From: a virus
Virus record (IMG/VR): IMGVR_UViG_3300028591_004246
Location: 64,001-93,199 of that record
Strand: one strand, 5' to 3'
DNA length: 29,199 nucleotides
Below are positions 7,042-29,199 of the stretch, piece after piece. Numbering within the stretch: the stretch's first letter is position 1; each line of letters opens with the position of its first letter. The position numbers and the translations under genes are program-made. The notes below the pieces were generated by a model that ran no database searches, was not told the origin of the DNA, and saw only the letters and a program-made list of their open reading frames with translations.

Positions 7042-7059
7042 AAATATTCTTCTCCTTTT
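7030..7059 (+). terminator. perfect 11-bp stem-loop spanning the Pol III stop codon, followed by TTTT (attenuator or partial terminator)
   Basis: GGAGAAGAATA (7030-7040), loop GAAA, TATTCTTCTCC (7045-7055), then TTTTG. The TAG stop at 7039-7041 lies inside the stem. The RBS GGAGATAAAATG of the next gene follows immediately. Confidence 0.5.
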
Positions 7060-7068
7060 GGAGATAAA

Positions 7069-7383: not shown

Positions 7384-7445
7384 ATTGTAAATTTTTAATT
7401 ATATTATAAATAAGTGAGCACAAAATCTAGTATAGGGAGGAATAG

Positions 7446-7649
7446 ATGATTACACTTTATAGTACAGGTTGTCCTCGTTGTAAAGTTTTAGAGCAAAAAC
7501 TTCAACAAAAAAATATTGATTTTAATATAGAATCAAATATGCAAACTATTATTGATATGGGTTTTAGAGCAGCTCCTATTCTTAAAGTAGATGAAAACTT
7601 TTATGATTTTGGAGGAGCTATTAAGTGGGTAAATTCATATGAAGATTAA
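7446..7649 (+). CDS. nrdH: glutaredoxin-like / NrdH-type redoxin
   Basis: 67-aa ORF with a CPRC redox motif near the N-terminus and an overall thioredoxin-fold pattern. SD GGGAGG lies upstream. It sits immediately upstream of nrdD and overlaps it by 11 nt. Confidence 0.6.
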   Translation: MITLYSTGCPRCKVLEQKLQQKNIDFNIESNMQTIIDMGFRAAPILKVDENFYDFGGAIKWVNSYED

Positions 7650-9603
7650 TATGAAATTAAACCGCAATTTTACAACTCAATATAATAAATTGCAAGGTGA
7701 ATTTGGAACAGAAATTGCAGAATTAAATGGTTTTGGAGATGAGCAACTTTCTTATACGGATTTTATTTCTAATTTTATAGATAAACAAACAGTAGCAGAT
7801 GCTTCTATTGATAGTAATTCAAATGTTAGTCATAAAGATATTGTAACTTTAGAAAGAGAAATGCCTAAACCCCACTCTAAACTTTTAGCTTTTAATAAAA
7901 TTTATTATGAAATTCAGAAGAAATATGGATTTAAAACAGCTAATGAATGGTTGCGGGCAGAGTGGATAGGTCAGCTTTATATGCACGACGCTCCATCATC
8001 AACATTTAGACACTATTGTTTTGCTTATGACTTAAAAGATTTAGCAGAAAGAGGGTTATACTTCTTTCCTGAAAGAAATGCTAAACCAGCAGAGCATTAT
8101 ACAACTTTTATTGATTTTGTAAAAGAGTTTGTTAATTATACTTGTAATCGATCTTCAGGTGCAGTAGGGTTGCCAAATCTTCTTCCATATATGTTTTACT
8201 TCTGGAAAAAAGATATAGATGACGATTATCTAGGCATACGAACTTCAGGCAATGAACGATATTATGCTGATCAGGGATTCCAACGATTTATTTACGCGGT
8301 AAACCAAAACATCATGAGAGATGGTTCACAATCAGCTTTCACAAATACATCAATTTTTGATCGGCCATATTTTGAAGCTCTTTTTGGTGGATCGACATTC
8401 CCTGATGGAACCTTTATGATTGATTATGAAGAAGAAATAATTGAATTTCAAAAATGGTATATGGAAGTTATGTCTGAAATTCGATCAACTAATATGTTAA
8501 CATTCCCAGTAAACACAATATCTCTTCTTCGTAAAGAAGGAAAATATGATTTAAACACTCTTGATGGTTTCGTTGATCAAAATTTTGCAGAGTGGGCTAT
8601 TAAACATAATATGAAATGGTCAGATTCAAATATTTTTCAAGATACATCTGTTAATAGTTTATCAAATTGTTGTCGATTAAAAAGTGATATTGCTGAGCTT
8701 GGCTATTTTAATAGCGTCGGGGGATCAGCACTTAAAGTCGGATCTGTTAAAGTATCGACAATAAATCTTGCTCGTTTAGCATTAGATACAGATTCAGAAG
8801 AAGAATATTTACAAGAACTTGAATATAGATTAATTTTAAATCTTAAAGCTCTTGATTGTGTTCGTCATATAATTCAAAGAAATGTTGACAAGGGTTTGCT
8901 TCCTAATTTTTCATATGGCTTAGTTGATTTCCCGCATCTTTATAATACAATTGGCTTCCTTGGTGTTTATGAAACAATGAAAAAATTTGGATACACTAAA
9001 GTAGATACGTTAGGTAATACTTATTATACTGATAAAGCTTCTTTGTTCGGTCAGAAAATTTTTGAAACTATTCGTGAAGTATCTAATCAATTTATTAAAG
9101 ATAATAATTTAGATTATAAGATTAATTGTGAACAAATTCCTGGTGAAAATGCAGCAGATAAATTAATGAAAAAAGATAAATTCTTTTATCCAAATGCCAA
9201 TATTTATGATTTACCATTATATGGTAATCAATTTATTCCTTTAGGAATTCAAACTACTGGGCAAGAAAGAGTTAGAATTCAAGCGCAATTTGATGCTTTC
9301 TGTAATGGAGGATCAATACTTCATTATAATATTGATGCACCTTTTACAAGTTACGAAAAAGCTTTATATATGACTAATTATATTGCTCAAAAAGGTGTTA
9401 CATATTTTGCATTTAATACTCGAATTTCTACATGTGAAGATAATCATGCATTTTATGGCAACGGGCTTTGTCCAGTCTGTGGTAAACCAAAAGATGCAGA
9501 GTTTACTAGAATTGTTGGCTTCTATACAAAAATTAACAGTTGGAGCCAGACTCGCAAAGATGAGTTTAAACTTCGTAAATGGGATAACATCAATGATAAT
9601 TAA
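7639..9603 (+). CDS. nrdD: anaerobic ribonucleoside-triphosphate reductase (class III), NrdD
   Basis: 654-aa intact ORF. It carries the conserved GGSALKVGSVKVSTINLARLAL segment, a C-terminal Zn ribbon (C..C...CPVCG), and a glycyl-radical motif TRIVGFYTK near the C-terminus. No TGA. Confidence 0.85.
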   Translation: MKINMKLNRNFTTQYNKLQGEFGTEIAELNGFGDEQLSYTDFISNFIDKQTVADASIDSNSNVSHKDIVTLEREMPKPHSKLLAFNKIYYEIQKKYGFKTANEWLRAEWIGQLYMHDAPSSTFRHYCFAYDLKDLAERGLYFFPERNAKPAEHYTTFIDFVKEFVNYTCNRSSGAVGLPNLLPYMFYFWKKDIDDDYLGIRTSGNERYYADQGFQRFIYAVNQNIMRDGSQSAFTNTSIFDRPYFEALFGGSTFPDGTFMIDYEEEIIEFQKWYMEVMSEIRSTNMLTFPVNTISLLRKEGKYDLNTLDGFVDQNFAEWAIKHNMKWSDSNIFQDTSVNSLSNCCRLKSDIAELGYFNSVGGSALKVGSVKVSTINLARLALDTDSEEEYLQELEYRLILNLKALDCVRHIIQRNVDKGLLPNFSYGLVDFPHLYNTIGFLGVYETMKKFGYTKVDTLGNTYYTDKASLFGQKIFETIREVSNQFIKDNNLDYKINCEQIPGENAADKLMKKDKFFYPNANIYDLPLYGNQFIPLGIQTTGQERVRIQAQFDAFCNGGSILHYNIDAPFTSYEKALYMTNYIAQKGVTYFAFNTRISTCEDNHAFYGNGLCPVCGKPKDAEFTRIVGFYTKINSWSQTRKDEFKLRKWDNINDN

Positions 9604-10057
9604 AGGTATTATTTCTGAAGATTTTATTAATTATAAAAAACCTTGTATGGTTATAGAATTTCCAGTTTGTAAAAATTTTAAATGCGGGCAAGCCTTATGT
9701 CAAAACGATCCATTAATAAAATATCCAGATATAGAAATTAGTTATTCTCAAATTGTTAAAAAATACATGGAAAATGATATTACACAAGCTATTGTTTTTA
9801 TGGGGCTAGAACCTTTTGATAGTCCGCATGATTTATTTCTTTTAATTGAAGAATTTAGAAAATATACAATGGATGATATTGTAATTTACACTGGATATTA
9901 CTGGAATGAAATTTCTACATATGTAGCTATGCTAGGGGATTATAAAAATATTATTATTAAATACGGTAGATACATTCCCAATCAAACTCCACACTATGAT
10001 GAAGTTTTAGGTGTAAAATTGGTAAGTGATAATCAATATGCTGCAAAGATCAGTTAG
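9593..10057 (+). CDS. nrdG: anaerobic RNR activating protein (radical-SAM), NrdG-like
   Basis: ATG at 9593 overlaps the nrdD stop (ATGATAATTAA). The 154-aa product has segments matching NrdG (AIVFMGLEPF ~ GISLSGGDPL; DIVIYTGYYWNEI ~ DIWVWTGYKLDEL). The Cys cluster is PCMVIEFPVCKNFKCGQALC. The track ORF 9383..10057 is a spurious N-terminal extension that overlaps nrdD. Confidence 0.7.
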   Translation: MIIKGIISEDFINYKKPCMVIEFPVCKNFKCGQALCQNDPLIKYPDIEISYSQIVKKYMENDITQAIVFMGLEPFDSPHDLFLLIEEFRKYTMDDIVIYTGYYWNEISTYVAMLGDYKNIIIKYGRYIPNQTPHYDEVLGVKLVSDNQYAAKIS

Positions 10058-10065
10058 GAATAAAT

Positions 10066-10308
10066 ATGTATTATAATAATTATTTTAACAACAACAATAA
10101 TACTACTATTTTAATTATAATTATAGCTTGTGCTCTTATAGTTGGTTTAAGTTTTCTTTTATTTGCTTTTGGCTATTGGCTAATAACTTTAATAGCTGCT
10201 CAAATTTTTAATTTTATAATTCCATTTGAATGGACATATGCTTTAGGAGCTTATGCAATATTAATAATTATTAAATTATTTATGTTACCAAGTGGTCAAT
10301 CTAAATAA
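10066..10308 (+). CDS. small hydrophobic membrane protein (80 aa, 2 predicted TM helices)
   Basis: Asn-rich N-terminus followed by two long hydrophobic stretches. It is the last gene before a rho-independent terminator. Confidence 0.5.
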   Translation: MYYNNYFNNNNNTTILIIIIACALIVGLSFLLFAFGYWLITLIAAQIFNFIIPFEWTYALGAYAILIIIKLFMLPSGQSK

Positions 10309-11356: not shown

Positions 11357-11768
11357 AATAAAATATGAACATGATGATGTCCCTCGATTAAATAAAATTG
11401 TTCAAGGAGATTGAATTGATTTAACTTTAGATGAAGATATTCAATTAGATAAAGGGCAATCAGGACTATTTTCTTTAGGAGTGTGTATTCAATTACCAAA
11501 AGGATATGAAGCAATTTTAGCTCCAAGAAGTTCAACATTTAAACGTTATCATTTACTTCAAACCAACTCAATTGGTGTTATTGATAATTCTTATTGTGGA
11601 AATAATGATATCTGGAAAGTTAGTTTTTATGCCACCGAAACTACTTTTGTTCCAAGAGGAACAAGAATTTGTCAATTTAGAATAATTAAAAATCAGCCTG
11701 AAATTAATTTTATAGAAGTTTCATCCCTTAATAATCAAGATAGAAATGGTTTTGGTTCAACAGGATAA
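11346..11768 (+). CDS. dut: dUTP diphosphatase (dUTPase)
   Basis: ATG at 11346 with SD AGAGGAG upstream. The 140-aa product has dUTPase motifs (GVIDNSYCGNND, RICQFR, C-terminal NGFGSTG). One in-frame TGA (GDW) is read as Trp. This merges the track ORF 11481..11768 with upstream sequence. Confidence 0.8.
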
Positions 11769-12247
11769 TGATTTTATCTTTAGATCAAGCATTAGTCACA
11801 ACAGGTTGAGCAATTTTTGATGAAAATAAATTAATAGCTTATGACAGTTTTACTATAAATGGAAAAGATTCTATTGAAAAAAGATTAGGATTTATTTTTC
11901 AAAGATTAACAGAATTATATAATAAATATGAGTTTGATTATTTAGTATTTGAAGATATTCAACAGCAACAAAATCCAAGTACATATAAAAAACTTGCATA
12001 TGTTCAAGCGATTATTTTACTTTGATGTTTTTATAATCAAATTAATTTTACAGTATTAAGTCCTTCTCAATGAAGAAAAATATTAGGTGGTAATTTTGGT
12101 AGAAAAAGAGAAGAACAAAAACAAAAAGCTATTGATTTAGTAAAACAATATTATAATATAAATGTTGATTCAGATATAGCAGATGCAATTTGTATTGGTA
12201 AAGCTTATTTAGATAGTCATAAGCAATTAGGATTTGGGGTGATTTAA
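11768..12247 (+). CDS. RuvC-like Holliday junction resolvase
   Basis: ATG overlaps the dut stop (TAATG). The 159-aa product has ILSLDQALVTTGWAIFD at the N-terminus and SDIADAICIG near the C-terminus (the RuvC D-x-ADA-x-AI motif). Three in-frame TGA codons are read as Trp. Confidence 0.7.
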
Positions 12248-13902: not shown

Positions 13903-13948
13903 TAAAAAAATAAGGGGTACTCTTAATTGAGTACCCCTCTTTTTTTTT
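13903..13948. terminator. bidirectional rho-independent terminator between convergent early (+) and late (-) modules
   Basis: An A-run at 13903-13911 is followed by the stem AGGGGTACTC (13913-13922), the loop TTAATT, the stem GAGTACCCCT (13929-13938) and a T-run at 13939-13948. It is flanked by U-tracts on both strands. Confidence 0.75.
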
Positions 13949-15509
13949 ACCATTTATTATCATTTAAAGAGCATTGTAAGGCTTTAACAGATTCTCTACC
14001 AAAATATCCATCTACATCAATATCGTAACCTTTATTAACTAACCATTGCTGGAGAGCTCTTGAGGTCCCAGGGCCTCATTGACCATCAACTTCCGCACCA
14101 ACTTTACTTTGAATAGCTTCAACTAATTGAGAACCAGTTCCGCTATCATATTCAACATTATACATTCCTCAATGGTAATCTTTATTTCCAAGCCATTGAC
14201 CGCTAATAACACCATCTTCATAAGTACCTAATGTGTGCTGTAAATCAATAATAGTGTTTCATCCACCAATACCATCAATTTCAAGTTTTCCACCATCGCG
14301 ATTATTTTTTGGATCAGTTGAAACATCTGGTGTGAAATTTCCACTATCAGAATTACTATAATGAGGTCTAATAACATAGGCTACGTTACCCATATTACGA
14401 TATTTTTCTTGTACGGCATTACTAACATTACCTTCAATTGTTGGGAATCCAGAGCCATCAAAACTTCCTGTTGCAAATCCAATATGGTCAGTAGCTCCAT
14501 CTCAATCCCAATTAAAGATAACAATGTCTCCATACTGTACATTATATTTATCTACAGCATAATTTCTTGCGCCATTATTTAAAGCTAAATCTGTATTATA
14601 ACTTGGAAAACCTTTAACTACAACTCCTGCTTGCTCTAGACACCAACTTACAAACATGCAGCACCATCAAATTTCAACAGAAGGTCCAGCAAGCCAATCT
14701 TCATCTCATTTATCAGCTAATCAACGGCCATATTTTGAGCCTGGATTTGGATCATCAGGAGCATAATACCCTAATTCACCATAAGCAACGTCAATAACAC
14801 TTTTAGCTGTTCCACTCATTTGTTTACTTTCTTCTTCTTCTTTCTTTTCCTCTATTGGTTCATCAGTTTGAATAGTTTGTCCAGCAGCTATTCTTGCGGG
14901 ATAATCAATACAACATCAATCACAGTCATGATAACCACTAACATCATCAAACACGATATGACCATCAGACAATCTGATTCCGCCTTGCTGTCACATTCCG
15001 ATATCTCCAGCTTCGATTGGTCAAGAAGCTCTTCATCAAGCAATTCAATTAGCATAATCACGAAGTTCATCTGCATACATATTGTTTAATCATGCATTTC
15101 CACCAGTATAAAGTCCTGCATAATATCCTCTATTACGAAGAGTATCGCAAAAAACTTTAATAACATCAGTTAAAGCACGTGCTGATAATTGAAATTGTCT
15201 TGGATCTTCAACATCTGTATAACAAGGTAAATCAAATTTATATCCATCAAGCAAATCTGCAAAATGATTAGCATCTTTTCTTGAATTCTCTGTATCTGTA
15301 GTAACTGTATAATAATATGCTCCAACATGGAGTCCAGCAGCTACAGCTTTTTTATAATTATTTTCAAATTGTCCGTCTTTGTAACGTCCTAAATTTGTTT
15401 CATTTCCACCAGCTTTAATAATAACGCCTCAGAGTCCTCTTTGACGTTTTCAAGCTGCTAAATCAATATCTCCATCTCAATGAGAGATATCAAGAACAAG
15501 TTCTTTCAT
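13947..15509 (-). CDS. modular endolysin: GH25 muramidase + CHAP peptidase/amidase + PG_binding_1 cell-wall-binding domain
   Basis: ATG at 15509 with SD AAGAGGTG, and a TAA stop. Reading TGA as Trp gives a continuous 520-aa protein (about 17 TGA). The N-terminus MKELVLDISHWDGDIDLAAWK...IIKAGG matches the GH25 signature, with TGA at the conserved Trp. The middle region (...WCCMFVSWCLEQAG ... TDHIGFATG) is CHAP-like with Cys/His. The C-terminus VDGQWGPGTSRALQQWLVNKGYDIDVDGYFGRESVKALQ matches PG_binding_1. Confidence 0.85.
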
Positions 15510-15530
15510 TTTCCGCACCTCTTTTCTATA

Positions 15531-15577
15531 TAAAAAAAGAGTCCCATATTTCAGGGACTCTTTTTATTTTATTTTTT
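15531..15577. terminator. stem-loop terminator between holin and endolysin genes (U-tracts on both strands)
   Basis: AAAAAAA, then stem AAGAGTCCC (15537-15545), loop ATATTTCA, stem GGGACTCTT (15554-15562), then TTTTATTTTATTTTTTT. Confidence 0.55.
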
Positions 15578-15859
15578 TAGATGAGCAGGCTGCTTTTTTA
15601 ATTCACGCATTAGTATGTCTGCTTGAAGAGCGGGTTGAGTAAAGCTGTTATTCTTCCATCAAGCAATAATAGAAGCTAAAATAACAGCAACACCTGAAGC
15701 AATTTCATAAATATTGTTTTCATCAATATCAATAGGAGTTCACCCAAGTAAAGCGCAAAAAGCATTAACTAATGCGATAAATAGAACGATGGTTCTAGCA
15801 ATAGTCCCAGGTTCAATTGAAAGCAATCCATCTAAATTAATTGTTTTTGCTTCAGCCAT
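15569..15859 (-). CDS. holin (phiLC3/LL-H-type, Phage_holin_1-like)
   Basis: ATG at 15859 with SD GAAGGTG. The 96-aa product has central hydrophobic segments (IVLFIALVNAFCALLGW, GVAVILASIIAWW) and a charged C-terminus (MRELKKQPAHLKK). It contains 2 TGA-Trp codons and lies immediately upstream of the endolysin. Confidence 0.7.
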
Positions 15860-15884
15860 TTAAAACACCTTCTTAATTAACTAA

Positions 15885-16685
15885 TTATTCTCCAGAACTG
15901 CTTCCACCAGCAACGAGTTCATCAATCTCTGCATTAGTAGCAAATGTAATATCTGCATCTAAGACATATGGAGAAAGATCAACGAAGCCAGGAAGTACAT
16001 CGAACTTATATGCAGGAGACTGACCAGTTGTATCAGTATCAACAACAACTACATTGGTTCCAGCAGGATAGGTCTTAGTTGTTCCACTAGCATATTCAAC
16101 GAAATCGCTAGTAATAGTAAAGGAGTCAGTAACATTATAAACGTTACCAAGGACACCAACAGCTAGAGTTGGTAGACTTGCAAATGCTACAGAACCAGCA
16201 GGTTTATAAACAGTAGCAATCTGAGCAGCTACAGTGTCATCAACATAAGTTTTAACAGCTGCACCTGTTGGAAGTTTTTCGTCATTAGTAAGTGTAGTCT
16301 CAACGTCTTTATAAGCAGCAGCGTCAAGACCATGAACGGCTACATCTGAACCATTAACAGCAACAGTACCATTTGTAGCACCTTCGGCAACTGTAACATT
16401 AACTTTCTTGGTTGTGCTATCAGGAGTTAAATCTGTAGCATTAACTTGGACACCAAGAACTGGAATTGTTACGTCAACCTTTTTGTTAGCATCAGGAGTT
16501 AAATCAGCACTATTAACTTGAACACCAAGAATTGGAACTTCAACATCAACAGCACCATTAGAATCCTGTGTTAGAGCTGTACCGTTACGTTTAACAGTTT
16601 TTACTGCACCAGCAGGAGCAAAAGTTTCTGTAGCTTTCTGCCATAAACGTTGAATACCAGCCCAATCAACGAGTTTCATCGCCAT
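15885..16685 (-). CDS. hypothetical virion/structural protein with internal tandem 24-aa repeat (Ala/Val/Thr/Gly-rich, acidic)
   Basis: Intact 266-aa ORF (ATG at 16685, SD AAAGGGTG, TAA stop). The local GC content is clearly higher than in the flanks. Its Trp codons are TGG, with no TGA. A 72-nt unit is tandemly duplicated. Confidence 0.6.
   Translation of the reverse strand: MAMKLVDWAGIQRLWQKATETFAPAGAVKTVKRNGTALTQDSNGAVDVEVPILGVQVNSADLTPDANKKVDVTIPVLGVQVNATDLTPDSTTKKVNVTVAEGATNGTVAVNGSDVAVHGLDAAAYKDVETTLTNDEKLPTGAAVKTYVDDTVAAQIATVYKPAGSVAFASLPTLAVGVLGNVYNVTDSFTITSDFVEYASGTTKTYPAGTNVVVVDTDTTGQSPAYKFDVLPGFVDLSPYVLDADITFATNAEIDELVAGGSSSGE
16422..16565 (-). repeat. 2 x 72-bp imperfect tandem repeat inside the 266-aa gene
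   Basis: AGGAGTTAAATC...TTAGCATC at 16422-16493 matches AGGAGTTAAATC...TTAGAATC at 16494-16565. It encodes the duplicated ...VDVxxPxLGVQVNxxDLTPD... segment. Confidence 0.7.
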
Positions 16686-16702
16686 ATAATCACCCTTTCT
16701 TT

Positions 16703-17329
16703 CTAATTACCTTGTATAATTTCTTCTATTTCATCATCTGTAACAGCTCTAAATCCAAAGTCCTCTAATGTTTGATTCCCTGTAAGTTCAACTCCATTAA
16801 TAGAAGGTTTATTTGTAACATAAAGATAATCTGTTACGCCTTCGAGTTCAACTTCTTCTAATCATTTTGTAATATCTTCTACACTTTGATTCATAACTAT
16901 TGCAGCTTGTGAAAACAAATTATAATCATCAGAAGCAATAAATTTATCTAAATCTATTGGGTCTGCGGAAATAGTAACTTGAAAATCATCTGTTCCAATT
17001 AAACTATTATTATCAACTTTTTCAATTTTACAAATAATATGTCCTTCTTGAATCATTTTTGATGGTCAAGCTATTTCTCAGACTGGATTAATTTTTAAAG
17101 TTTTATCTCCAACTTCAATACAATTAAATACATTATAGCCTTGAATATCTAATTCTTGATGATGCCATTTTAAATAAATTTTAGTAGAAGAAGTAAAAAC
17201 AGAAGCAGCTTCTTGAGAAAAAATTACTTTTAATTTTTTTCCATTAATATCATTGCCACTAAATATCATATCTTCTATTGGTTGATAAAAAGATTTTATT
17301 TCTAAAATACAAGAAGTTAATGATAACAT
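16703..17329 (-). CDS. hypothetical protein (208 aa; 3 TGA-Trp codons)
   Basis: Track ORFs 17078..17335 and 16862..17056 share one frame and are joined by in-frame TGA codons (17078-80, 17066-68, 16862-64). The frame continues to a TAG at 16703-16705. A likely ATG is at 17329 (GAGAGGTG upstream), or alternatively GTG at 17335. Confidence 0.5.
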
Positions 17330-17376
17330 ATTCACCTCTCCCTCTAATCAATTCTCACTAAAATTATTATAAAATA

Positions 17377-17414: not shown

Positions 17415-20400
17415 TTAATTTTGTTCTGGAATATAGAAGTAGCCCTTGTCTGTATTATTATTAACAGAACCATCTTTACGATAAGCAATATAAATAGTAT
17501 GCGGGATTCCTTCCAAATTCTCAAACTTTGCTTCTTTATAATTCATATTAGAGTTACCATAAGTATTATAATTATAACTACTAGTAGTTGGTTGAGCATC
17601 TATCTTCATAATCAAATAGTCATAATTAGATTCTCCATATGAACAATATTTAATAATAAATGTATCATATCCATCAATATTAATCATACAAGTATCAGTA
17701 GTGTTATGTTGATTTGTATGTTTACTACTATAATATACTGTATGACCATCTACTTGAGTTCCACTATCAGCTCATTCATCATTGTTAAGGTCTATAGTAT
17801 ATTCTTGTTGAATTAATATTACTCTTAATATCTTTGTAGCAGTTATACTATTATCATAAATACTAGTAGCTGTAATAATTAAAGTATCTCCATCAGAAGC
17901 ATTTACTAATTTAACTAGACCATTAGTATCAATAGTAGCATTACCTTCAATAGACCAAGTCACTCCACGATATTGCGGGTCAACATCAATACTATCATCT
18001 GGGTCTATATAGACAGGAGTTAATTGAGCAACTCTATCATAAACATCTTGTTTATAACAATTGATAGTTTCAATATTGGAATCTAATCTTATAGATACTA
18101 ATTCTTTATCAGAGCCATCTTTAAAAGCGCTTAAAACATTTTTCCATTGATAAGCTGCTTTATATGTTGGGAATAAACTTAATGGAATATAAATAGAGGT
18201 TACACCAGTAGAAGAAAGATATGTATTAGTATCTGAATTAAAGTTTTTAAATACTCCACGAGCATAAACTGTTCTAAGATTTGTCGCATATCTAAATATT
18301 TCTGATGTAGAATTAACTGCTGAAAAATCTCAACCAGAAATATCTATTGTATTTAATTTATCACAATAATAAAATAATCCATATAAATCTGTGACTGTTG
18401 AGAATGTTCATTTAGACATATCGAGTTCAGTAATTGCTCTATCATATCAAAACATTTGTCTAATAGTAGTAAGATATGGAGTATGCATTTCTCCAAAATG
18501 AATACTTGTTAAACTAGGATTATTTGCAAACATAGCTTGCATTGTAGTGACATTTGTTACATCCAATAGATCAAAGTCAAAAGTTTTAATTCTTGTTTCA
18601 TTAAAAGCATGACTTAAACTAGTAATTTGTGAGGTTTCACTATTAATAATATCAAAAGAGCCAATCTGATAACGACCACTTAAAGTAATATAAGTTCCAC
18701 TAAAATTATTAAATGTAATATTTAATGTACCAGCGCTAATATCATTCATAGTAGAAATAATGGTACTAATTCTACCGCAATCACTACAATTAATAAATTC
18801 TGTATTGGTAATTTTACTATCATAACGAAACATGTTAGATACATTTGCGGAAGATGGTATATTTGGAATAATAACACTCGTTAAATTTGAACAATTTGCC
18901 ATTGAATATTGTAAATTATTAATTTTATCAACAGATAATTTTGTAGCATCAAGAGTTGTCATTTTACCTTCATAGAAAGCATAATTAAAATTACAATCTG
19001 CTTGTTCTCGCATATTTCATTTTGAAGTATCTAAAATAGTTAAATAAGGACACATATGGAAACAATATGTATAATTAGTTACATTTGAAAAATCCATATT
19101 AATATCTTTAAGATTATGAATTCCAGTTCCCGCATAAGCATAATTTAATGAATTAGGTTTATTTCTTTCATGAATAACAATTTCTCCATTATTACTTTCA
19201 ATTCAATCAATCATATTAATATTTTTAATTCTAATAGCACTTCTAATAAATTCATTAAAATTATTATTAATAGTACCTTCAACAATTAAAGTAATAAAAC
19301 TATTACTATTATTAGCTCCATTACAAATTCATCTAATTAAACTATTTCCACCTGTTCAACCATTACATTCAGAAAAATAAATATTTTGAAGAGCAGAACA
19401 ACCTTTTAAACAATCAGTAGCATAGCCACTACTATAATCATAAAGTTGCTTAGCATTCCTAAATTCAATTGTGTCAAGAGTAATACAATTTTCAAACATA
19501 TGAGTCATATGTAAATAATAAGCTCGATTAGCAACTACTAAATTTGGAAATTCTATATAATCAATAGACGTACATTCTGCAAACATATAATCATAATAAA
19601 TATCTGTTCCTTTATTAATATTCATATTATAATTTTCAGGGAAAATAATCGTTTCAAGTAAACCACATTGATAAAACATATATCTTGAATTTTGAATTTT
19701 AGTAAAATTAGAATAACCAATATCTACAGTTATTAAATTAATACATCCAGAAAACATATACTGAGTATTATTTACATTTCCAACATTTCAAGTAGTCATA
19801 TTTATTTCTGTAATAAATACTTCCATATTATTTACAGTAGTTCCAGAATCTTCCATAAATTTAATTTTAGTTATTGCTCTACAATTTTGAAACATGTAAG
19901 ACATATTAGTAATAGGAGAAATATCAGCATCATTTGTAGTTGTTGTTAATCTAAATCAATCAATATAATCTAATTCATAACAATCTTGGAACCAACCTTG
20001 CATACTAGTAATTCCAATAAATTTAGAATATTTTAAATCAATAGATTTTAAAGCTCAACATCCAGCAAATAAATATTGAGCGCCAGAATCACTTAATTCA
20101 ACAAAATTTACACTACTTAAAGTTAAATTTGTTAAAGAATGACAATTAATAAACATTCTGCTAATATTAGTAGCTCTACATGGATTAGTAAATAAATAAT
20201 TAATATTTAAAGTTTCAAGAGCATAACAATTTCCAAACATATATTCTAAGCTTCTATCACCAGCTCATGGATAACTATTATTATTTTGTCCAACTCTTGT
20301 AAATGAAACATTATGTAAATCTAAAGATTTTAAAGCTCTGCAATGATTAAACATACCTTGACAATACATAACATTAGAAAATAATCAGCCATTATCTCCT

Positions 20401-23400
20401 TGATGTGTATTAATTTCTTCAAGAGCATAACAATTTTGTAACATACAGGTTGTACTATAAGCACCAATCATATTAAAGTGTTGATTTAAAGTTTTTAAAG
20501 TATAACAGTGTTGAAACATATATTGGAAATTAGTACATTTTTGAGAAATAAAACTATCAGGAAAAGTTAATTCTTCAAGAGCATGGCATCCTTCAAACAT
20601 CCCGTCAACTCTTTGAAGATTTGCTCCTCCAAAGGTTTCTGGAATTCTAATTGATTGAAGAGCATAACATCATTGAAACATTCTTTCTGCACTAGTATTA
20701 TTTATCATTGTAAAAGTATCTGGAAGATATAATTCTTCAAGAGACTCACAATAACAAAACATATACGTAGCATTATCTCCACTTCATAAAGAAGTATTAA
20801 AATTAGGAATCAAGAGATGCTGTAATGATTTACAATTATAAAACATTTGATAAAAATCAGAACATTTAATAGTATTAAAACTTGTTAAATCTAACTCTTG
20901 TAAAGATTGACAATCATAAAACATTTCATACATTGTAGTAACATTTTCTGTTGAAAAATTATTAAAATCTAAAGTTTCAAGTTTAGTACATGCATAAAAC
21001 ATTTCATTAAAAGTAGTTACTAAATCTGTATTTAATGGAGTTAAATCAAAAGTTACTAAAGAAGAACAATAACAAAACATATTAGCACAATTAGTTAAAC
21101 TGTGTCAATATTCCATACCACTAATATCTAAAGTAGTTAAATTAATACAATCATAAAATAAATTAGATACATTTTTAATACTTTGTCCTTGAGCCCCTCA
21201 TGTAGACATATCAATAGTAGTACCTCTATATCCTCTAAATAAATTAGCAATACTAGTACAAGTATTAATATTTCACTCTTCTAGATGAAGATCAACACTA
21301 CTACCACAATAAGTTCCGCCTATTGATTTTCCTGCTAAATAGAAAGTATTATTTCTATAAATAACTCTTTGTAATGCTGAGCATCCTCAAAATTGAGCCT
21401 GAATATTTTTAACATGTTCAGTCCAAAAACTAGAAAGATTAATAGTTCGAATAGTATTAGCATTTAAAAACATTACTGCTCAATTAATAGAAGTAGTTGT
21501 TTCTTGAATATTTCATTGAGACAAATCTACACTAGTTCCCTTATAGCCACTAAACATTGCTACAAAACTTGTTTGCTGTGAAACATCTCAATGACCAATG
21601 TTTAAAGGAATTTTAATATTATAAAACATTTGCCCAACTGCTGTATAATATGTATATCTCATACTTCCATTAGTACCAGTATCAATTCATCTTGTAGAAT
21701 AGTTTTCATTACTTCAATAATCAATTGAATTAGCCTTCATTATAAATGAATTTGTTTCAAAAGTTTTAAGTTTAGAACAATTATAAAACATAGCTTCAAA
21801 ATTTACAACTTTAGAAGTATTAAATGTTTGAATTTTTAAAGTAATTAAATTAGTACATTCAGCAAACATTTCTGCCATACTTGTTCCTTGAGAAGTATCT
21901 CAATTAGAAAATATTAATTCCGTACCTTTATAACCATAAAACATTCTAATAAAATATTTCATTAAAGAGGTATTAAAAAGAGTCAAATCATGAATTTGTC
22001 CTATACTTCCATTGAACATGTCTCTAACATTTACACTAGAATGGAACTTTCATTCATTTGTTATATACAAATCCTGTAAATTAGAGGTTCCATAAAACAT
22101 TTCTGACATATTGGTACAAAATTCAATATTAAAGTCTGAAAGAGTAATTGTAATTGCCTTACAGTTATAAAACATTTGTGACATATTAATACAAGATTCG
22201 GTATTAAAATCTAAAAGAGTAACTGTAGTTGCTTTACATTCTCTAAACATCTGCGACATATTGGTACAAACTTCTGTATTAAAATTTGAAAGTGCGATTG
22301 TAGTTAATACAACATTTGTATTATAAAACATTTGATACATTGTTGTTACATGAGAAACATCTCAAGTAGAAATATTAATTTCTGGAAGAAAACATCCACC
22401 AAACATATAAGTCATATCTGTAACTGAAGAAGTATCCCAAGTATTAAATAAAATTCAAGGAGCATGTACATCTGCAAAAGTATTAATCATATTCTGTACA
22501 GAAGAAATATCTCAAGTAGATAAATCTAATCCATTAGTAAAAGTAGACAGCCTAAACATAGCTCTGAAAGAAGTAATATTAGAAACATTTCAATTTGCAA
22601 CGTTTATATTTGTAAAAGTTGAACGATACAACATTGCTCTTAAATTAGTAATATTACTAAAATCTAAATTTTCAGCTTCTAATGTTCCAATAGTAGAATC
22701 ATAAAAGAAACTAAAATCACTATCTCAACTAGGAATATTTGTTAAACTAGTAATATCTCAATCTGTAATATTAATTAAATTTGCAGTACATCCTCTAAAA
22801 ATAAATTGCATATTAGTACAATTACTCATATCTCAGGTTCTTAAATCTAATTCAAGACTAGATGTTCCCATTTCTCTAAACATACCACTAGCATTTAAAA
22901 CTTCACTAGTATCAAGAATATCTAATCCTTCAATAGACTGCAAACCTTTTAATTTATAAAACATATTCATACTATTAGCATTTAAAATAATAGGTGCTGC
23001 AACTTCAAAAGTAATAGTAATTGTTCCAGTATTATTATCTCAATTAGCTACTACTGGAGAACCTTGAGAACCAATAGCAATACCAGATTTTTGAATACCA
23101 TTTTCAAATATTATATGTTTAATTTTAGTATCTTCAAAATTACCATCTGTAACATTACTTCCATTTGCCATACGTTTAATAGTATAAGAAAATTCACCAC
23201 CAGAAATTAATCTAGAATTATATTTTTCTGGAAGAAGCGGAAAATCATAATATGTTTCTACTTTAATAGGAATATCTTCATTTCAAACAGTATACATATT
23301 TTGAACACCAGTATACATATCTTTAGGAAATTGCATTGGATATAAAACTATATTATAATCTAAGTAAGTAGGAGAGACATAGAAAAACGCTCTATCCTCA

Positions 23401-26400
23401 TTTGAATCAACACTACCATCCTTACGATAAAGTAAAGTAATAATATGCGGATTATCATCATAAATTTCATATACAACTGTAGTATATGCTGTACTTGGTT
23501 TTTGATAAGTATGATATTCACAATTAGAAGTTGATAATCCAGAAGTTTGATCGAGTTTACTAACAATTAAATAATCATAACTTGATTCTCCATTAGAACG
23601 AACTCTAATAGAAAATCTTGAATAACCTTGTATAGTTAAATAACAATAAGCATTTCCATTAGCAATATGATAATTAGAATTACTTTTATAAATTTGAGAA
23701 CCATTTATAGCATTATCACCATCTTCAATCCATTGGTCATTTAAATCAATAGATCAAGAAGCATCAGATAGGTGTTTAATAGAATATCCTTCTATTTCTG
23801 CATTTCTAGCAGTATCATAAAATTGTCCTATATCCATTTGCTGCATAGCTAAACAATTATATAAACCATTCTCTTTTTCAGTATAATTAAATAACGTTCT
23901 ATGTTTGCGGAAATCGAGGTATGTCATACTTTCACAACCAGAAAAAATTTCTCGCATATCCCGCAAATAATTAGAACACAATAATACTATATTAGTTTCA
24001 ATAGCTTTGCAATTCATCATCATTTGATAAGCTGAAACTACAGTGTTAAATATAATTTCAGGATAGGCTTCTTGTTTAATTTCTGTTAAATTATAACAAT
24101 TCTTAAACATTTTATCAGCATTTTTAATATACATAAAAGGAAATACTTTAGTAACTAAATCATATGTAGGAGCTGCACCTGTAGATTTTGTTCCTTTTGG
24201 TCAAATAATTTTTTCAAGTTCATAACAATTTTCAAACATTGATGACATATTACCAATATTTTCAGATGTTAAACCAAGATTACCATTATTATTATATGGT
24301 AATCCAGTAGCTTGAGCTAAATTATGATAAGTTTGGAACATTCAAGTACTTAAATCAATTTCTTGTAATTTTCTACAATCTTTAAATATTCTAACAAATC
24401 AATATTTTTGACTATTACTAGTATTTTCAGAAGGAGAATATTCGGTTGTAGTACCTCTTCAATCACCAAATTTTAGATTAACTAAAACTAAATTTTCAAG
24501 ATTATAACAACCATCAAAAGTTCCTTCAAATTCTTGAGTTGTATTATAATTAGTAATATCTATAGGTCTATCATTTGGAAATTTAATACTTGTAATTTTA
24601 CGACAATTATAGAAAGTTTCTTTTAATGAAGTTAATTGAATATCATAACCGCCATATTGTAATCAACTTCTACTATATCCTGTAATTCAATTATAACCAG
24701 CATTAGGATCAATCTTAGAAATAAATTTAGAAAAATCTATACTCATTTCTAAATTTTTACAATTATAGAAAGTTTGACTTAAATTTCATAAAACCATATT
24801 TTGAGAGCCATTACTTGATTTATCAAATTGACCATTAGTAGTAATACTCTTTAAATTAGTAATATCAATTAATGACCCACAATTATAAAACATTTGTTTA
24901 AATTGATTATTAGAATGTCTATCAACATAATAAGTTCAATTATTAGAAGTATAATATCTTCTAAATGCTAAATTAATTTTTTCAGGTAAAATAATATGTT
25001 TAACATTTATACATTCTTTAAACATTCCTTCATAACAAGGACCATTAAAAACATTTGAATATTTTAAATTAATTTCTTCTAAAGATTTACAATTATAAAA
25101 TAAATAAGAATAATCGTATAAATTTGTAAAAAAGAAATATTTTAAATCTAAATTTTGTAAAGATTCACAATTATAAAAACATCTACCTACTAATTCAGTC
25201 TTTCTTCAATAAGCACTAAAACCAAGAGGCTGAGCATATTGTCCATGTAAATCTGTAATTGTAATTAAGGATTTACAATTATAAAAAATTCTATCAAAAT
25301 TACAATATAAATAACAATTAGACATATCAAGTGCGGGAAGAGATTCACAATTTTCAAACATACTAGCAGCTTTTACAAGACGTCCATGAAATTCCATTTT
25401 AACAAAATCTAAATTAATTAAAGATTTACAATTACAGAACATATAAGAAACATCTGTGACACCTCTTGTTCTTCATCTATCAAAAATAATAGATATTAAA
25501 GATTCACAGTTTAAAAACATTTGATTTGTAGAGTATAATCATGGACTTTCAACATCTCCCATATCCAAAGATTGGAGATTAATACAGTCTTTAAACATTT
25601 TTTTAATATCTCTAGCCATATGCCAATTAAAATTAGATAAATCTAATTGAGTTGCCAAACAACCCTCAAATAAATTATTAAAATAAATATTTTCTTTATT
25701 AAATTGTGCGGTCAATTGCTCATAAATCACATCTGGCAACCAAGCAAAAATATAATCTTTCTTTCTTGGAAATATAATTGAAGAAATATCAATTTCTCTT
25801 AAATTATTACATCCAGTAAACATATATGACATATCTTGAACATTAATTGTATTAAAATTAGATAAATCTGCAAAAAGTAAGGAAGCACAATTATAAAACA
25901 TATAAGACATATCTATAACATTATTTGTATCAAAATCTTTAAAATCAATTAAACTTAAAGATTCACAATTACTAAATAAATGTGTCATATCTGTTACTTT
26001 AGAAGTATCTATATTTTCAGGAAGTATAAGTTCTTTAAGATTTTTACATCCATTAAACATATATTCCATATCTATAACGTTAGAAAAATTAAAATGAGAT
26101 AAATCAATATAATCAAATAATTCACAATTATTAAACATATAACTTGTATCAGTTAATGTTTGTAGTTCTAAATTAGATAAATCTACGGTAATAAGCGAAA
26201 AACATCCGTCAAACAAATGAGAAATATTTGTAATATTTTCCCATTGAATCTTATTGAAATTGTTTATGCGTCGTAATTCCCGCATATCATAAAAAGTATA
26301 TTCTGCATTATCTCTAATTACAAAATTTTCAGCTCTGGTTTGAATAATAATTTTTTTAGTGTCACTATTATAATAAATGTATGGCCCAACATATTCTATA

Positions 26401-29186
26401 TCATTAATAGTAGTTACATATTGAGTACCATGTGGACTAACAATTCTTGTTCTAAAGTCTATACTTTTAATTTCTTGTAAAGAAACACCTTTAGTTGCAG
26501 AATAATTTTCTATCATATTCCGCAATGCCATCCCTGAATAAAATATATTATTATCAAAGCCATATGTTCTTTCTAGCAGCTCTTGGGTTACAGCTCTTTC
26601 TCTAATATATTTTCCAGGCCCATCAATTAAACCAGTAACATTAATATTAAAATTAGGAATAATACTTTCTTTAGTAGTATCATATTTTGATAAAATAACT
26701 TCGTTATCATTGTTAAGAGGAAGCTTATATCAAGGTTCATCCGTTGTTAATTGTTCATAACCATCTGTCTTTTCATAACTTTTATTAATTATAACAACAT
26801 TTGCTGTTGGAATATAATTTTTTAAACATTTTCTTAAAGTAGAATTATAAGATTTTGTTGCTCTATTAATAGTTTTCATTCTTCCTCAATCAACATCTGA
26901 GAAATTAATAGAACGTAAATCTGAACAACCTTTAAACATAGTATCTAAACCATAGATATAATATCAATCATAGTACTTTTCATCATATCCTCTATGTGTT
27001 TTTCTATAATTAGTCACATCTTCAAGATATATTTCATCACAAGGATCTTGAAAAGGAATTAATTCTTCTCTTGTAACAACAGGATTCATTTTAAAATTAG
27101 TAATATCAGTTAATCTCTCATCATCATTAAACATATATGCATAATTACAACAATAACTAGTATTAATTTTTTCAAAAGAAAAATCTTCAAGATAAATCAT
27201 TCCAGAGAACATACCAGAACCATCTGCTGGAATATAAAATTCATTTTCTGGTGTTGCTACAATTAATGTTTTAGTATCATGGTCATAATCTCATGTTAAA
27301 CTATTAGAATAAACTTTTTTACTATATTCATCTACTCTAACAACCAAACTATTAGGAAGCGGGAATAATACATTCGTTCTTCATTCTATATGTTTTATTA
27401 CTTTTCCAGCAAATTGTTTACTAAAATTTTGACCTAAGAAATTATGCATAGAAGGATATTCATAATAAGGCTCTGGTTTGACTATACAATCTTCTCTAAT
27501 ATATCTACCTATTTGATGAAGATTTAATTGATAAGTTCTAATACCAGTATTTTGTTCTATCATATAATATGGTAAAGCTAATCCAATATCTTTTAAATAT
27601 CCATCTCTATTTTGGTCAAGACCTAATAAACTAGAAGCAGCATCTTTATTCATTCCTGCATCAACTGCTAATTTAAATAAATCTTGCATATAAGCTTGTA
27701 CGTATTTGTCTTGAATATAATCACTATATGGAAGATTTACTGCTGGAGTATATTGACTATTCATATTAGTAAACATACCCTCTTGTACCATATTACCAGT
27801 AGTTAAATCCATTACTTCTTGAGTAACTGCTTCCGTATATGACATTCTTCAATCAATACGGAGTCCAGCTTCTACACTATTTAATAAATCATATCCTGGC
27901 ACTCCACTAATATTATATCCCATAAATGCACTACTAGAAGTCATTGTATTAACTTCTGTATAAGTAGTAATACTAGGTTTAATTCCTTCAACTGTTTGAA
28001 AATCTTGTCGTGGACTATAAGCATCATAGTGTGCAATTTGTCATCCATTTACACTTAACATAGTTCTAGAACCTGTTAAAATTTCTTGTAAATTTCAACA
28101 ATTATGAAAAGGAGAATTTATATGCAATGTTTCTTTACCAGAATAGAAGAAATTAATTCAATTAGTTCAATCAATTTTCTTTAATTGGTAACATTCAGAA
28201 AACATTCCTGAAATATTATTAATTGAAAAAACTGGACTATCAAAAGTAAATTCTTCAAGAGAAATACAAAAATGAAACATAAAACTTACATCTTTAAGAG
28301 ATGGAACTTTTCAAAATAAATTTTTAGGATTTGTTTTTAAACTATAACAATGAGAAAACATGTTTTTCATTGAAACCAAATTTGGAGCAAATATAGGTTC
28401 AATATTAACAGTAGTTAAATTAGGACAGTATGCAAATGTTTCTTGCATATATGTAACTTTACTGATATCAATACCTTGAAGATTTGCTTCTACGAGATTC
28501 GGACATTCAGAAAACATTTGAGTCATATTACTAGAACGTAATACTTTATCTCCATAAAATCTAAAATTAACAAATCCACATTGAGAAAACATTCCAATCA
28601 TTTCACATTCATGATAAAAAGTTGGAAGTTTAACCTCAACTAAACAAGAACAGTTTTTAAACATTCAATTTAGAATTCTAACATTGGAAGCGTCCCAAGA
28701 GGTCAAGTCAATTGTATTAATACTTAAACAACCTTGAAATCAACCCTGAAAACTTTTAACTAATGAAGTATCTAAATTACCTATATTAAAGATAAGTCAT
28801 AATTCACTCATACCAGAAAACATATTGGTCATATCTTCTGGAACTACAACTTTTCCATTAAATACAATATTTTTAATTTCACTATTATAAGCAGACCATG
28901 GATTAGTAAGATATTCTTCTGATAGGTAGGTAACTTTATCAGGATCACCAATTACTAATGTCCCATGGTTTGTAATAGCCCAAGGACAATCACCATTATA
29001 TCCAGAATAAATAATTTCTCCACCTCGAATATATTTTTCAAGGTCAGACATTTCTTTTCCTGGAAGGTCATCAATAGCAGAAGAAAATTCGTAAGGCATA
29101 TAGGTTTCATCTCGCCCATTCTTCTCACGAATAGCATCTGCAATATCCGTTAAAACAGATTTTTTAATAAATACTTCTTCTGCCAT
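17415..29186 (-). CDS. giant BspA/DUF285-type leucine-rich-repeat protein (3,923 aa with TGA=Trp); likely tail fiber / host-adhesion protein
   Basis: ATG at 29186 with SD AAGGAG 6 nt upstream. All 14 minus-strand track ORFs between 17415 and 29186 lie in one frame. I read every gap between them codon by codon and found only TGA (61 in total), with no TAA or TAG until the TAA at 17415-17417. The product consists of dozens of ~25-aa repeats of the form ..MFxxCxxL..lDlSnFnTSnVtdMsxMF.. The conserved S-W-D-x-S-N-V tryptophans are encoded by TGA. Confidence 0.75.
22103..22330 (-). repeat. three near-identical 75-bp tandem units (DNA-level) within the giant gene
   Basis: TGACATATTGGTACAAAATTC..., TGACATATTAATACAAGATTC... 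and CGACATATTGGTACAAACTTC... occur with a 75-nt period. Each unit encodes one 25-aa DUF285 repeat. Confidence 0.7.
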
Positions 29187-29199
29187 TTTATCTCCTTTT

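What the first reader, a model, noticed from the sequence alone, without database searches (positions are those of the whole stretch)
23200..23700. The giant ORF is an in-frame head-to-tail fusion of two paralogous ~1,950-aa modules, with an internal Met aligned to the N-terminal start
The protein's N-terminus (MAEEVFIKK...GRDETYMPYEF...IRGGEIIYSGYNGD...SEIKNIVFNGKVV) is repeated internally after about 1,950 aa (MQFPKDMYTGVQN...IKVETYYDFP...ISGGEFSYTIKRMANGSNVTDG...TKIKHIIFENGIQ). The internal Met (plus-strand CAT at 23334-23336) sits exactly 29 residues before the conserved ETY, as does the true start. Likewise the ~90-aa C-terminal domain (...YDYLI...YRKDGSV...FY) that ends the protein at 17415 is also found just upstream of the internal Met, at about 23400-23690. 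No stop codon (TAA, TAG or TGA) and no SD separates the two modules. Inference: this is either an ancestral tandem gene pair whose terminator was lost or a recent duplication. The two halves may still be produced separately through internal initiation or proteolysis.
Basis: seen in the sequence. Interest (0 to 1): 0.7.

Follow-up and report, generated by a model that had tools for sequence, protein, structure and literature searches.

The report
Giant two-tipped phage adhesin gene
The giant gene is real, but only when TGA is read as tryptophan, and it encodes one very long phage adhesin that carries the same sugar-binding-like end domain twice (mid-chain and at the tip); it is not two matching half-genes with a hidden second start.

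Summary
Partly right. The minus-strand ORF 29186..17415 (3,923 aa) is open only if TGA is a sense codon. It holds 61 in-frame TGAs, one of them 17 codons after the "internal Met". Five TGA<->TGG swaps in a 98%-identical relative show that TGA = Trp.

The repeat of the C-terminal domain is real: residues 1806-1941 vs 3791-3923, 38% identity, E ~1e-19 to 1e-21. It is a ~130-aa beta-sandwich of an unnamed family (1,338 clusters) that sits at the extreme C-terminus in 108 of its 150 best representatives.

The N-terminal repeat is not real. The alignment score is reached by 26-31% of shuffles. A 78-instance profile of the true N-terminal leader hits only residues 7-42. ETY occurs twice where 1.05 is expected. 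The halves are not colinear, whereas the tandem paralogs A and B pass the same test 17/17 and 16/16.

Residues 1-1941 match a canonical complete gene plan (leader, BspA/DUF285 repeats, C-domain; 337-780 aa elsewhere, and in the one case examined it sits in the receptor-binding-protein slot). Residues 1942-3923 form an extra leaderless unit that opens like an internal repeat-array boundary.

The two C-domains are anciently diverged, so this is not a recent duplication. Met1951 has no Shine-Dalgarno sequence (-0.2 kcal/mol). Best reading: one modular late protein built by old accretion.

The parts
17415..29186 (-). Giant late gene, 3,923 codons plus TAA. It is readable only with TGA = Trp (61 TGA, 12 TGG).
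   Evidence: The ORF is intact (3,924 codons, 62 TGA) in the 98.4%-identical relative L150, with 102 synonymous and 68 nonsynonymous codon differences and 5 TGA<->TGG swaps.
29061..29168 (-). N-terminal leader, residues 7-42 (IKKSVLTDIADAIREKNGRDETYMPYEFSSAIDDL). It is the presumed virion-attachment module and the only copy in the protein.
   Evidence: Leader HMM i-E 1.2e-16, with no second hit. phrog_29123 E 1.7e-5. The motif lies within ~15 residues of the first start codon in most (about four in five) of the 55 phage ORFs.
28047..28844 (-). DUF285 (BspA-like LRR) array I, residues ~115-380.
   Evidence: PF03382 at 75.9 bits against a cutoff of 25, best stretch 220-343. Motif map.
27126..27599 (-). 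Segment S2, residues 530-687: non-LRR insert plus the internal array-start cap that opens array II.
   Evidence: S2 vs S3 Smith-Waterman z 7.9, 0 of 500 shuffles. HMM.
26202..26660 (-). Segment S3, residues 843-995: a duplicate of S2 that opens array III.
23817..26309 (-). DUF285 array III, residues ~960-1790.
23364..23771 (-). C-domain copy 1, residues 1806-1941: a beta-sandwich (MAM/CUB/CBM-like).
23088..23363 (-). Junction linker, residues 1942-2033. It contains Met1951 (23334-23336) and the in-frame TGA at codon 1968 (23283-23285). No homologs were found and there is no leader.
22929..23087 (-). Internal array-start cap that opens array IV, residues 2034-2086.
   Evidence: An HMM built from S2, S3 and the internal caps of paralogs A and B gives i-E 6.6e-6, the best non-training hit.
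18207..22928 (-). DUF285 array IV, residues ~2087-3660.
17808..17963 (-). Possible Ig-like spacer, residues ~3742-3793. The match is weak.
   Evidence: aBig_2 E 0.0057, 16.9 bits, below the 27-bit cutoff. Tentative only.
17418..17816 (-). C-domain copy 2, residues 3791-3923, at the protein's C-terminus.
13947..17335 (-). Downstream late genes: 210-aa and 266-aa proteins of unknown function (16703-17335 and 15885-16685), holin (15569-15859), and a GH25 + CHAP endolysin (13947-15518, 17 TGA).

Best explanation
This is one continuous late gene of a TGA-to-Trp recoded phage. It encodes a single giant modular adhesin, most likely a tail fibre or receptor-binding protein.

Layout: one N-terminal leader (presumed anchor to the virion); four DUF285/BspA-type leucine-rich-repeat solenoid arrays, each opened by its own cap; a lectin-like beta-sandwich C-domain in mid-chain; and a second, anciently diverged C-domain at the tip, preceded by a possible Ig-like spacer.

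Residues 1-1941 reproduce, stretched about three-fold or more (the others are 337-780 aa), a canonical complete gene plan (leader, LRR, C-domain). Residues 1942-3923 are an extra leaderless LRR-(Ig)-C-domain unit that was added long ago, either by fusion or recombination with another family member or by cassette accretion.

Because only the first unit has the leader, the second unit probably reaches the virion only through the covalent link, so the protein most likely acts as one chain with two potential glycan-binding heads.

Shown: the reading frame, TGA = Trp, the domain map, the leader's uniqueness, the age of the C-domain split, and the lack of start signals. Inferred: virion attachment, glycan binding, and the route of accretion.
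For: CODE.
- 61 in-frame TGAs in the giant gene, but 0 TGA and 31 TGG in the replication genes; no gene ends in TGA.
- Five TGA<->TGG swaps with the relative and no TGA-to-other change.
- The pattern matches published TGA-recoded phages (bioRxiv 10.1101/2021.08.26.457843).

ONE GENE.
- The ORF is intact in an independent assembly at 98.4% nt identity.
- Met1951 has a Shine-Dalgarno duplex of -0.2 kcal/mol, weaker than 120 of 148 internal Mets.
- No strong Shine-Dalgarno plus start codon lies at any module boundary.
- No promoter or terminator excess at the junction.

ARCHITECTURE.
- C-domain pair.
- C-domain family of 1,338 clusters, at the extreme C-terminus in 108 of the best 150.
- 11 of 150 representatives have leader at the N-terminus and C-domain at the C-terminus; LRR_5 or DUF285 lies between them in all 10 scanned.
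- One of them lies between Sipho_tail/Prophage_tail and Holin_SPP1. The giant gene itself lies between two DUF285 paralogs and the holin and endolysin.
- Single leader.
- Internal-type cap at 2034-2086.
- S2/S3 duplication.

FOLD.
- Viral structural neighbours are tail fibres, minor tail proteins and CBMs.

AGE.
- C-domains are 38% identical and rank 63rd and 18th of 173 in each other's hit lists.
Against: - No experimental evidence shows that the protein is made or is in the virion.
- The leader's anchoring role and the C-domain's ligand are inferred from position and fold only.
- No relative more distant than ~98% was found, so the history (fusion vs cassette accretion) cannot be read from comparisons.
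- No suppressor tRNA was found in the ~62 kb examined.
- Structural matches are to a very common beta-sandwich fold, with TM 0.4-0.67 and pLDDT 75.
- LRR_5/DUF285 proteins are also ordinary bacterial surface proteins.
Confidence: 0.6

Rival explanations
1. First reader's model. Two colinear paralogous ~1,950-aa genes were fused head to tail by loss of a terminator, or by a recent duplication. The second gene's N-terminus and start Met are still recognisable, and the halves may still be made separately.
For: - The C-domain normally ends proteins (108 of 150) and occurs just before the junction.
- The phage does carry tandem DUF285 paralogs (A and B), so raw material for a fusion exists.
- A Met lies in the linker.
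Against: - The N-terminal similarity is at chance level.
- The leader profile is silent in the second half.
- The halves fail the colinearity test that A and B pass 17/17 and 16/16.
- There is no preferred diagonal in the self-comparison.
- The C-domains are anciently diverged.
- Met1951 has no Shine-Dalgarno sequence and ranks 120th of 148.
- A TGA codon follows it 17 codons downstream.
Confidence: 0.1
2. Polyprotein-like maturation. The single translation product is cleaved near the junction (after C-domain 1). This gives a leader-bearing fibre and a second LRR-C-domain chain that stays associated non-covalently.
For: - The first unit ends exactly where canonical proteins end.
- The 92-aa linker (1942-2033) has no homologs.
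- From general knowledge, some phage fibres and tailspikes undergo maturation cleavage.
Against: - No protease, intramolecular-chaperone or autocleavage domain was detected (Pfam, PHROGs, NCBIfam).
- The leaderless second chain has no evident docking module.
- This model cannot be tested with sequence tools.
Confidence: 0.1
3. The protein is not a receptor-binding tail component. It is instead a capsid or tail decoration, or a released adhesin, that binds environmental glycans or non-host surfaces.
For: - BspA/DUF285 LRR proteins are mostly cell-surface adhesins.
- The C-domain occurs in bacterial lipoprotein-like proteins such as P0012.
- Function is inferred only from gene position.
Against: - The N-terminal leader is shared with many phage ORFs (56 loci).
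- The one canonical leader-LRR-C-domain gene whose context was examined sits in the slot between the tail genes and the holin.
- The giant gene lies between fibre-like genes and the lysis cassette.
Confidence: 0.15
4. Artefact. The long frame is an accident of low GC content, a misassembly of repeats, or a string of fragments ended by genuine TGA stops.
For: - Under table 11 the region yields only fragments.
- GC content is 26%.
- The content is repetitive.
Against: - 3,923 codons without TAA or TAG at 26% GC.
- DUF285 and C-domain homology continue across the TGAs.
- TGA<->TGG swaps occur at 5 codons.
- Synonymous differences exceed nonsynonymous ones, 102 to 68.
- The same structure is found in an independent assembly.
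- The lysin and holin also need TGA = Trp.
Confidence: 0.02

Closest known systems
Leader / BspA-type LRR / C-domain proteins of phages and prophages (unnamed metagenomic proteins such as P0089, P0093, P0123; 337-780 aa)
   Same: Same three parts in the same order: the N-terminal LTDIADAIRxKxG...Y.P.EM..AI leader, an LRR_5 or DUF285 solenoid, and a C-terminal ~130-aa beta-sandwich. In the one case examined (P0089) the gene sits in the same slot before the holin and lysin.
   Different: The giant is 5-12 times longer. It has four LRR arrays with non-LRR inserts, and it continues for 1,982 residues after the first C-domain into a second leaderless unit with its own C-domain.
DUF285 (PF03382) / LRR_5 BspA-like leucine-rich repeat surface proteins
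   Same: The repeat arrays score well above Pfam's threshold (75.9 bits against 25). They have an adhesin-type solenoid architecture.
   Different: Phage-encoded and TGA-recoded. No signal peptide or lipobox was seen by eye (not tested); an N-terminal phage leader occupies that position. Combined with two beta-sandwich modules.
Multi-copy C-domain proteins (P0003, P0005, P0006, P0010: C-domain, LRR, C-domain; P0012: tandem copies)
   Same: They show that more than one C-domain per chain, separated by an LRR block, is a recurrent design (18 of 151 representatives).
   Different: In those proteins the spacing is 400-700 aa. In P0003 the two copies look much more alike (by eye, not measured). Here the spacing is 1,856 aa and the copies are only 38% identical.
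MAM / CUB / carbohydrate-binding-module beta-sandwiches, and the matched part of Vibrio VesC (PDB 6bqm)
   Different: No sequence-level membership: no Pfam, NCBIfam, PHROG or PDB-sequence hit. The ligand is unknown.
TGA-recoded (code 4) gut phages described by Borges et al. (bioRxiv 10.1101/2021.08.26.457843)
   Same: In-frame TGA is concentrated in structural and lysis genes, while replication genes are compatible with the standard code. GC content is low. TGA is not used as a terminator.
   Different: No suppressor tRNA was seen in the stretch examined. Clade membership was not tested.

Membership tests
DUF285 (PF03382) repeat proteins | Pfam HMM score above the gathering threshold | tested here: met
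   75.9 bits against a cutoff of 25 for residues 1-996; 27.2 bits for the junction fragment.
Unnamed C-domain family (profile A2) | Full-length match to the ~130-position profile, with the conserved SxGES-YDY ... Y(R/S)KDGS...D motifs | tested here: met
   Both copies match: 207 and 181 bits. The family has 1,338 clusters at E<=1e-3.
Canonical leader-LRR-C-domain phage proteins | Leader within ~10 residues of the N-terminus | tested here: met
   Residues 7-42, i-E 1.2e-16.
Canonical leader-LRR-C-domain phage proteins | Protein ends with the C-domain | tested here: not met
   The chain continues for 1,982 residues after C-domain 1. Only the whole protein ends in a C-domain.
   Leader HMM gives no hit at domain E 1000. 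Smith-Waterman score is at the shuffle level.
   No preferred diagonal. Winner counts for second-half chunks: first half 7, A 6, second half 5, B 3. The positive control A/B gives 17/17 and 16/16.
   C-domain 1 at 1806-1941.
   Only ~98%-identical relatives with the same fused ORF were found.
TGA-to-Trp recoded phages | In-frame TGA in late genes at Trp positions, and TGA not used as a stop | tested here: met
   61, 17 and 2 TGAs in the giant gene, lysin and holin. All 20 genes end in TAA or TAG. Five TGA<->TGG swaps.
TGA-to-Trp recoded phages | Phage-encoded suppressor tRNA (UCA anticodon) | tested here: inconclusive
   None in the window or in L001, L002 and L023. Most of the relative's 148-kb contig was not examined. 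The paper reports such tRNAs in only 35% of code-4 phages.
TGA-to-Trp recoded phages | The host uses the standard code | not testable with these tools
   Indirect only: a GH25 + CHAP + PG-binding lysin implies a host with peptidoglycan, not a Mollicute.
MAM / CBM beta-sandwich lectin-like domains | Fold match plus a family-specific sequence profile or ligand site | tested here: inconclusive

The most novel reading that the evidence does not exclude
The ORF is a TGA-gated 'two-in-one' receptor-binding protein. A complete leader-LRR-lectin fibre is extended by a second, independently diverged LRR-lectin unit that has no anchor of its own. The product would either be one ~440-kDa chain presenting two different glycan-binding heads (dual-receptor recognition), or be cleaved at the junction like a polyprotein to yield two fibre components from one late, suppression-dependent message.
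Probability: 0.12. Interest if true: 0.55.

Novelty: new variant of a known kind. Interest (0 to 1): 0.32.

Why it matters
The result separates a real feature from a pattern-matching coincidence. The real feature is a giant recoded phage adhesin whose canonical gene plan is extended by a second LRR-lectin unit. The coincidence is the ETY and Met alignment.

Three practical consequences follow.
1. Annotation of this phage group needs code 4. Otherwise a 3,923-aa structural gene, the lysin and the holin are shredded into fragments.
2. Two undescribed but widespread modules could be curated and would help find phage receptor-binding proteins in gut metagenomes. One is an N-terminal leader seen in at least 56 phage loci. 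The other is a ~130-aa beta-sandwich with 1,338 clusters and no Pfam, NCBIfam or PHROG model.
3. The protein offers a natural test of whether phage fibres gain host range by adding whole binding units in cis.

Tried and rejected
- Megablast of the gene against 50,697 phage records: no match.
- Word-index protein searches. The junction query found only two short C-domain proteins. The N-terminal 141 aa found nothing. The non-LRR insert 381-685 found nothing.
- Seventy phage loci sharing the downstream 266-aa protein: none has the giant gene or a C-domain, and only L092 has a 761-aa DUF285 ORF.
- Nineteen other phage loci with a C-domain: unrelated phages with 440-1,650-aa proteins; not informative about the fusion.
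- Metagenome scan with the junction: found only the same population, Ga0247610_10000088, which is 100% identical to the IMG/VR relative over their overlap.
- The contig of P0001 is only 2 kb, so it gave no context.
- Whole-protein self-BLAST returns only the identity hit; it was replaced by a chunked comparison.
It was rebuilt as A2 from TGA-free stretches.
- The afdb50 fold library was unavailable.
- Considered and dropped: Met1951 as a start (no Shine-Dalgarno sequence); the exact 29-residue spacing as meaningful (one match among nine invariant positions); code 25 (TGA = Gly), given the TGA<->TGG swaps; a Mollicute host, given the muramidase/CHAP lysin.


Full report
**The reading frame**

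Under the bacterial standard code the region 17415-29199 has no long ORF. If TGA is read as sense, a single minus-strand frame runs from ATG 29186 to TAA 17415-17417, 3,923 codons, preceded by AAAGGAG. It contains 61 in-frame TGAs and 12 TGGs.

TGA use splits by gene class across the window:
- The replication genes (primase-like, DHH/RecJ, DNA polymerase III alpha, NrdD; 69-9603, plus strand) have 0 TGA and 31 TGG.
- The endolysin has 17 TGAs and the holin 2.
- All 20 genes end in TAA or TAG.

A relative from independent assemblies (IMGVR_UViG_3300031992_000092 and Ga0247610_10000088) is identical between the two assemblies over their overlap and 98.4% identical to the window across this gene. 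It keeps the whole ORF open: 3,924 codons and 62 TGAs. It differs at 102 synonymous and 68 nonsynonymous codons and one single-codon indel. Five codons interchange TGA and TGG, and none changes TGA to anything else. TGA is therefore Trp.

The early/late split matches the published pattern of TGA-recoded phages (bioRxiv 10.1101/2021.08.26.457843). The lysin is GH25 + CHAP + PG_binding_3, so the host has peptidoglycan and is not a Mollicute.

Codon 1968 (23283-23285) is a TGA, 17 codons after the 'internal Met'.

**What is repeated**

A BLAST of residues 1-1950 against 1951-3923 gave one colinear non-repeat hit: 1806-1937 vs 3791-3919, 37.6% identity over 133 aa, E 9e-19. In a chunked self-comparison of the whole protein this is the strongest off-diagonal hit (78 bits, E 4e-21). 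All the other hits are DUF285 repeats spread over offsets from 79 to about 3,400, with no excess near 1,950. No hit involves residues 1-120 or 1938-2045.

The alleged N-terminal repeat fails every test:
- Smith-Waterman score 32, reached by 258 of 1000 and 155 of 500 shuffles.
- ETY occurs twice where composition predicts 1.05 (P = 0.28).
- Met is 3.8% of residues, with three Mets within 14 positions at the junction.

**The real N-terminal module**

In the relative, two DUF285 paralogs lie just upstream of the giant gene: A (1,217 aa) and B (1,186 aa). They share a clear leader with the giant's N-terminus, with 21 invariant positions among the three.

The leader core (consensus LISESVLTDIADAIREKNGSSTTYKPSEMAAAILALD) recurs in 56 phage loci. 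In most of them (about four in five) it lies within ~15 residues of the first start codon. It also hits phrog_29123. A profile built from 78 instances finds the giant only at residues 7-42 (i-E 1.2e-16). It finds nothing in the second half, even with a domain E-value limit of 1000.

**How the second half begins**

Each DUF285 array in this family opens with a cap. A profile built from the caps that open arrays II and III of the giant (S2 and S3) and the internal arrays of A and B, excluding the junction, picks residues 2034-2086 as its best non-training hit (i-E 6.6e-6). This is well above generic repeats and above the N-terminal cap. S2 and S3 are themselves duplicates (z 7.9). The second half therefore opens like an internal array boundary, not like a gene start.

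**Are the halves paralogs?**

A and B provide a positive control. In 120-aa chunks, A's best hit is B in 17 of 17 chunks and B's best hit is A in 16 of 16, at 68-72 bits on average. The giant's two parts score 41-42 bits against each other, the same as against A, B or themselves. Winners for second-half chunks are split: first half 7, A 6, second half 5, B 3. The two parts have identical GC content (26.3%) and similar TGA use.

**The C-domain**

A profile search of 1.84 billion representatives finds 1,338 clusters. Of the best 150, 108 carry the domain at the extreme C-terminus, 16 near the N-terminus and 26 internally. Partner domains are LRR_5, DUF285 and Big_2.

Eleven of the 150 have the leader at residues ~5-40 and the C-domain at the very end, and are 337-780 aa long. 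All ten that were scanned have LRR_5 or DUF285 in between. One of them, P0089, lies between Sipho_tail/Prophage_tail genes and a holin. This is the usual receptor-binding-protein slot, and it parallels the giant's position upstream of the holin and lysin.

Residues 1-1941 of the giant therefore form a stretched version of a complete canonical gene, and 1942-3923 form an extra unit.

Against over-reading this: 18 of 151 representatives have two or more C-domains, some arranged as C-domain, LRR (400-700 aa), C-domain. An internal copy is therefore an accepted design in the family.

**Age of the C-domain split**

The two C-domains are 38% identical. Each is closer (42-46% identity) to proteins from other metagenomes. 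The partner copy ranks 63rd and 18th of 173. A recent duplication is excluded.

**Expression signals**

- Met1951 has a Shine-Dalgarno duplex energy of -0.2 kcal/mol, against -5 to -13 for real starts in the window. It is weaker than 120 of 148 internal Mets.
- No in-frame ATG, GTG or TTG at a module boundary has a strong Shine-Dalgarno sequence.
- Promoter-like sites at 22800-24000 number 9 against 9.3 expected, and there are no terminator-like sites.
- The junction is conserved in the relative, but that relative is too close to be informative.

**Conclusion**

The feature is a single late, TGA-recoded gene for a giant modular adhesin. Its parts, in order, are:
- one leader;
- four LRR arrays with their caps;
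- a mid-chain lectin-like domain;
- a possible Ig-like spacer (weak aBig_2 match);
- a terminal lectin-like domain.

The N-terminal repeat, the aligned Met, the 'no TGA' statement, the colinear paralogy of the halves and the recent-duplication option are not supported.

The second unit was probably added long ago to an already complete leader-LRR-C-domain gene. Whether this happened by fusion with another family member that lost its leader or by cassette accretion cannot be decided without more distant relatives, and none was found. Because the only leader is at the N-terminus, I infer that the second unit depends on the covalent link to reach the virion. This favours a one-chain, two-head adhesin. 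Cleavage at the junction remains possible but untested.

Noticed in passing
window 69-9603 (+) vs 11768-12247 (+), 13947-15859 (-), 17415-29186 (-): The genetic code splits by gene class. Replication genes have 0 TGA and 31 TGG. The RuvC-like gene (3 TGA, 0 TGG), endolysin (17 TGA), holin (2) and giant gene (61) need TGA = Trp. No gene ends in TGA. This is the published pattern of TGA-recoded phages, and standard-code gene callers will shred these genes.
   Followed up: partly
L150 4397-16171 vs window 17415-29186: Five TGA<->TGG interchanges (codons 164, 1508, 1615, 3065, 3681) between two 98.4%-identical genomes. This is direct evidence for the Trp reading and shows that recoding is still in flux.
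   Followed up: yes
window 1-29199; L001, L002, L023: No tRNA gene, and hence no UCA suppressor, in the window or in ~33 kb of the relative. The related metagenome contig is 148 kb while the IMG/VR record is 64.7 kb, and the window runs past the start of both, so the genome size and the source of TGA decoding are open.
   Followed up: partly
L002 725-2764, 2764-6417, 6428-9988: Directly upstream of the giant gene in the relative lie a 679-aa repeat-rich fibre-like protein and two tandem DUF285 paralogs (A 1,217 aa, B 1,186 aa). Both carry the leader. In B it follows an extra ~135-aa N-terminal domain. They share a different C-terminal end (40% identity over the last ~75 aa) and have no C-domain.
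   Followed up: partly
window 27126-27599 and 26202-26660 (-), residues 530-687 and 843-995: There is an internal duplication within the first half: a non-LRR insert plus an array-start cap (z 7.9). The gene therefore also grew by local cassette duplication. The inserts at 381-640 and 771-960 have no detectable homologs.
   Followed up: partly
residues 1806-1941 and 3791-3923; profile A2: The C-domain belongs to a large family (1,338 clusters at 50% identity) with no Pfam, NCBIfam, PHROG or PDB-sequence counterpart. It is usually C-terminal, and is often paired with BspA-type LRRs or Big_2. It is a candidate for curation as a new domain family.
   Followed up: partly
L095-L149 (e.g. L102 ~10001-10258; L100, L117): The N-terminal leader motif occurs in 56 phage loci, in front of very different bodies (LRR_5, DUF285, and sequences that look by eye like metallophosphatase and Ig-like regions). 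In some high-GC contigs (possibly actinobacterial prophages) it is present twice in tandem. It looks like a portable adaptor for variable distal proteins.
   Followed up: partly
giant gene, codons 1401-1600, 2901-3200, 3801-3900 vs 2001-2700: Divergence from the relative is patchy: up to 24 differences per 100 codons in hot patches, and 0-1 across codons 2001-2700. This suggests recombination tracts or localized diversification inside the gene.
   Followed up: no
window 15885-16685 (-): The C-terminal part (about residues 78-260) of the 266-aa protein between the giant gene and the holin is shared at 42-64% identity with ~70 otherwise unrelated phage contigs (phrog_38190, unknown function). 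It contains no TGA although it lies inside the recoded late block.
   Followed up: no
window 9290-10057 (+): The NrdG-like ORF downstream of NrdD overlaps the NrdD 3' end by ~300 nt in the mechanical ORF call and has one in-frame TGA. Its true start was not resolved.
   Followed up: no
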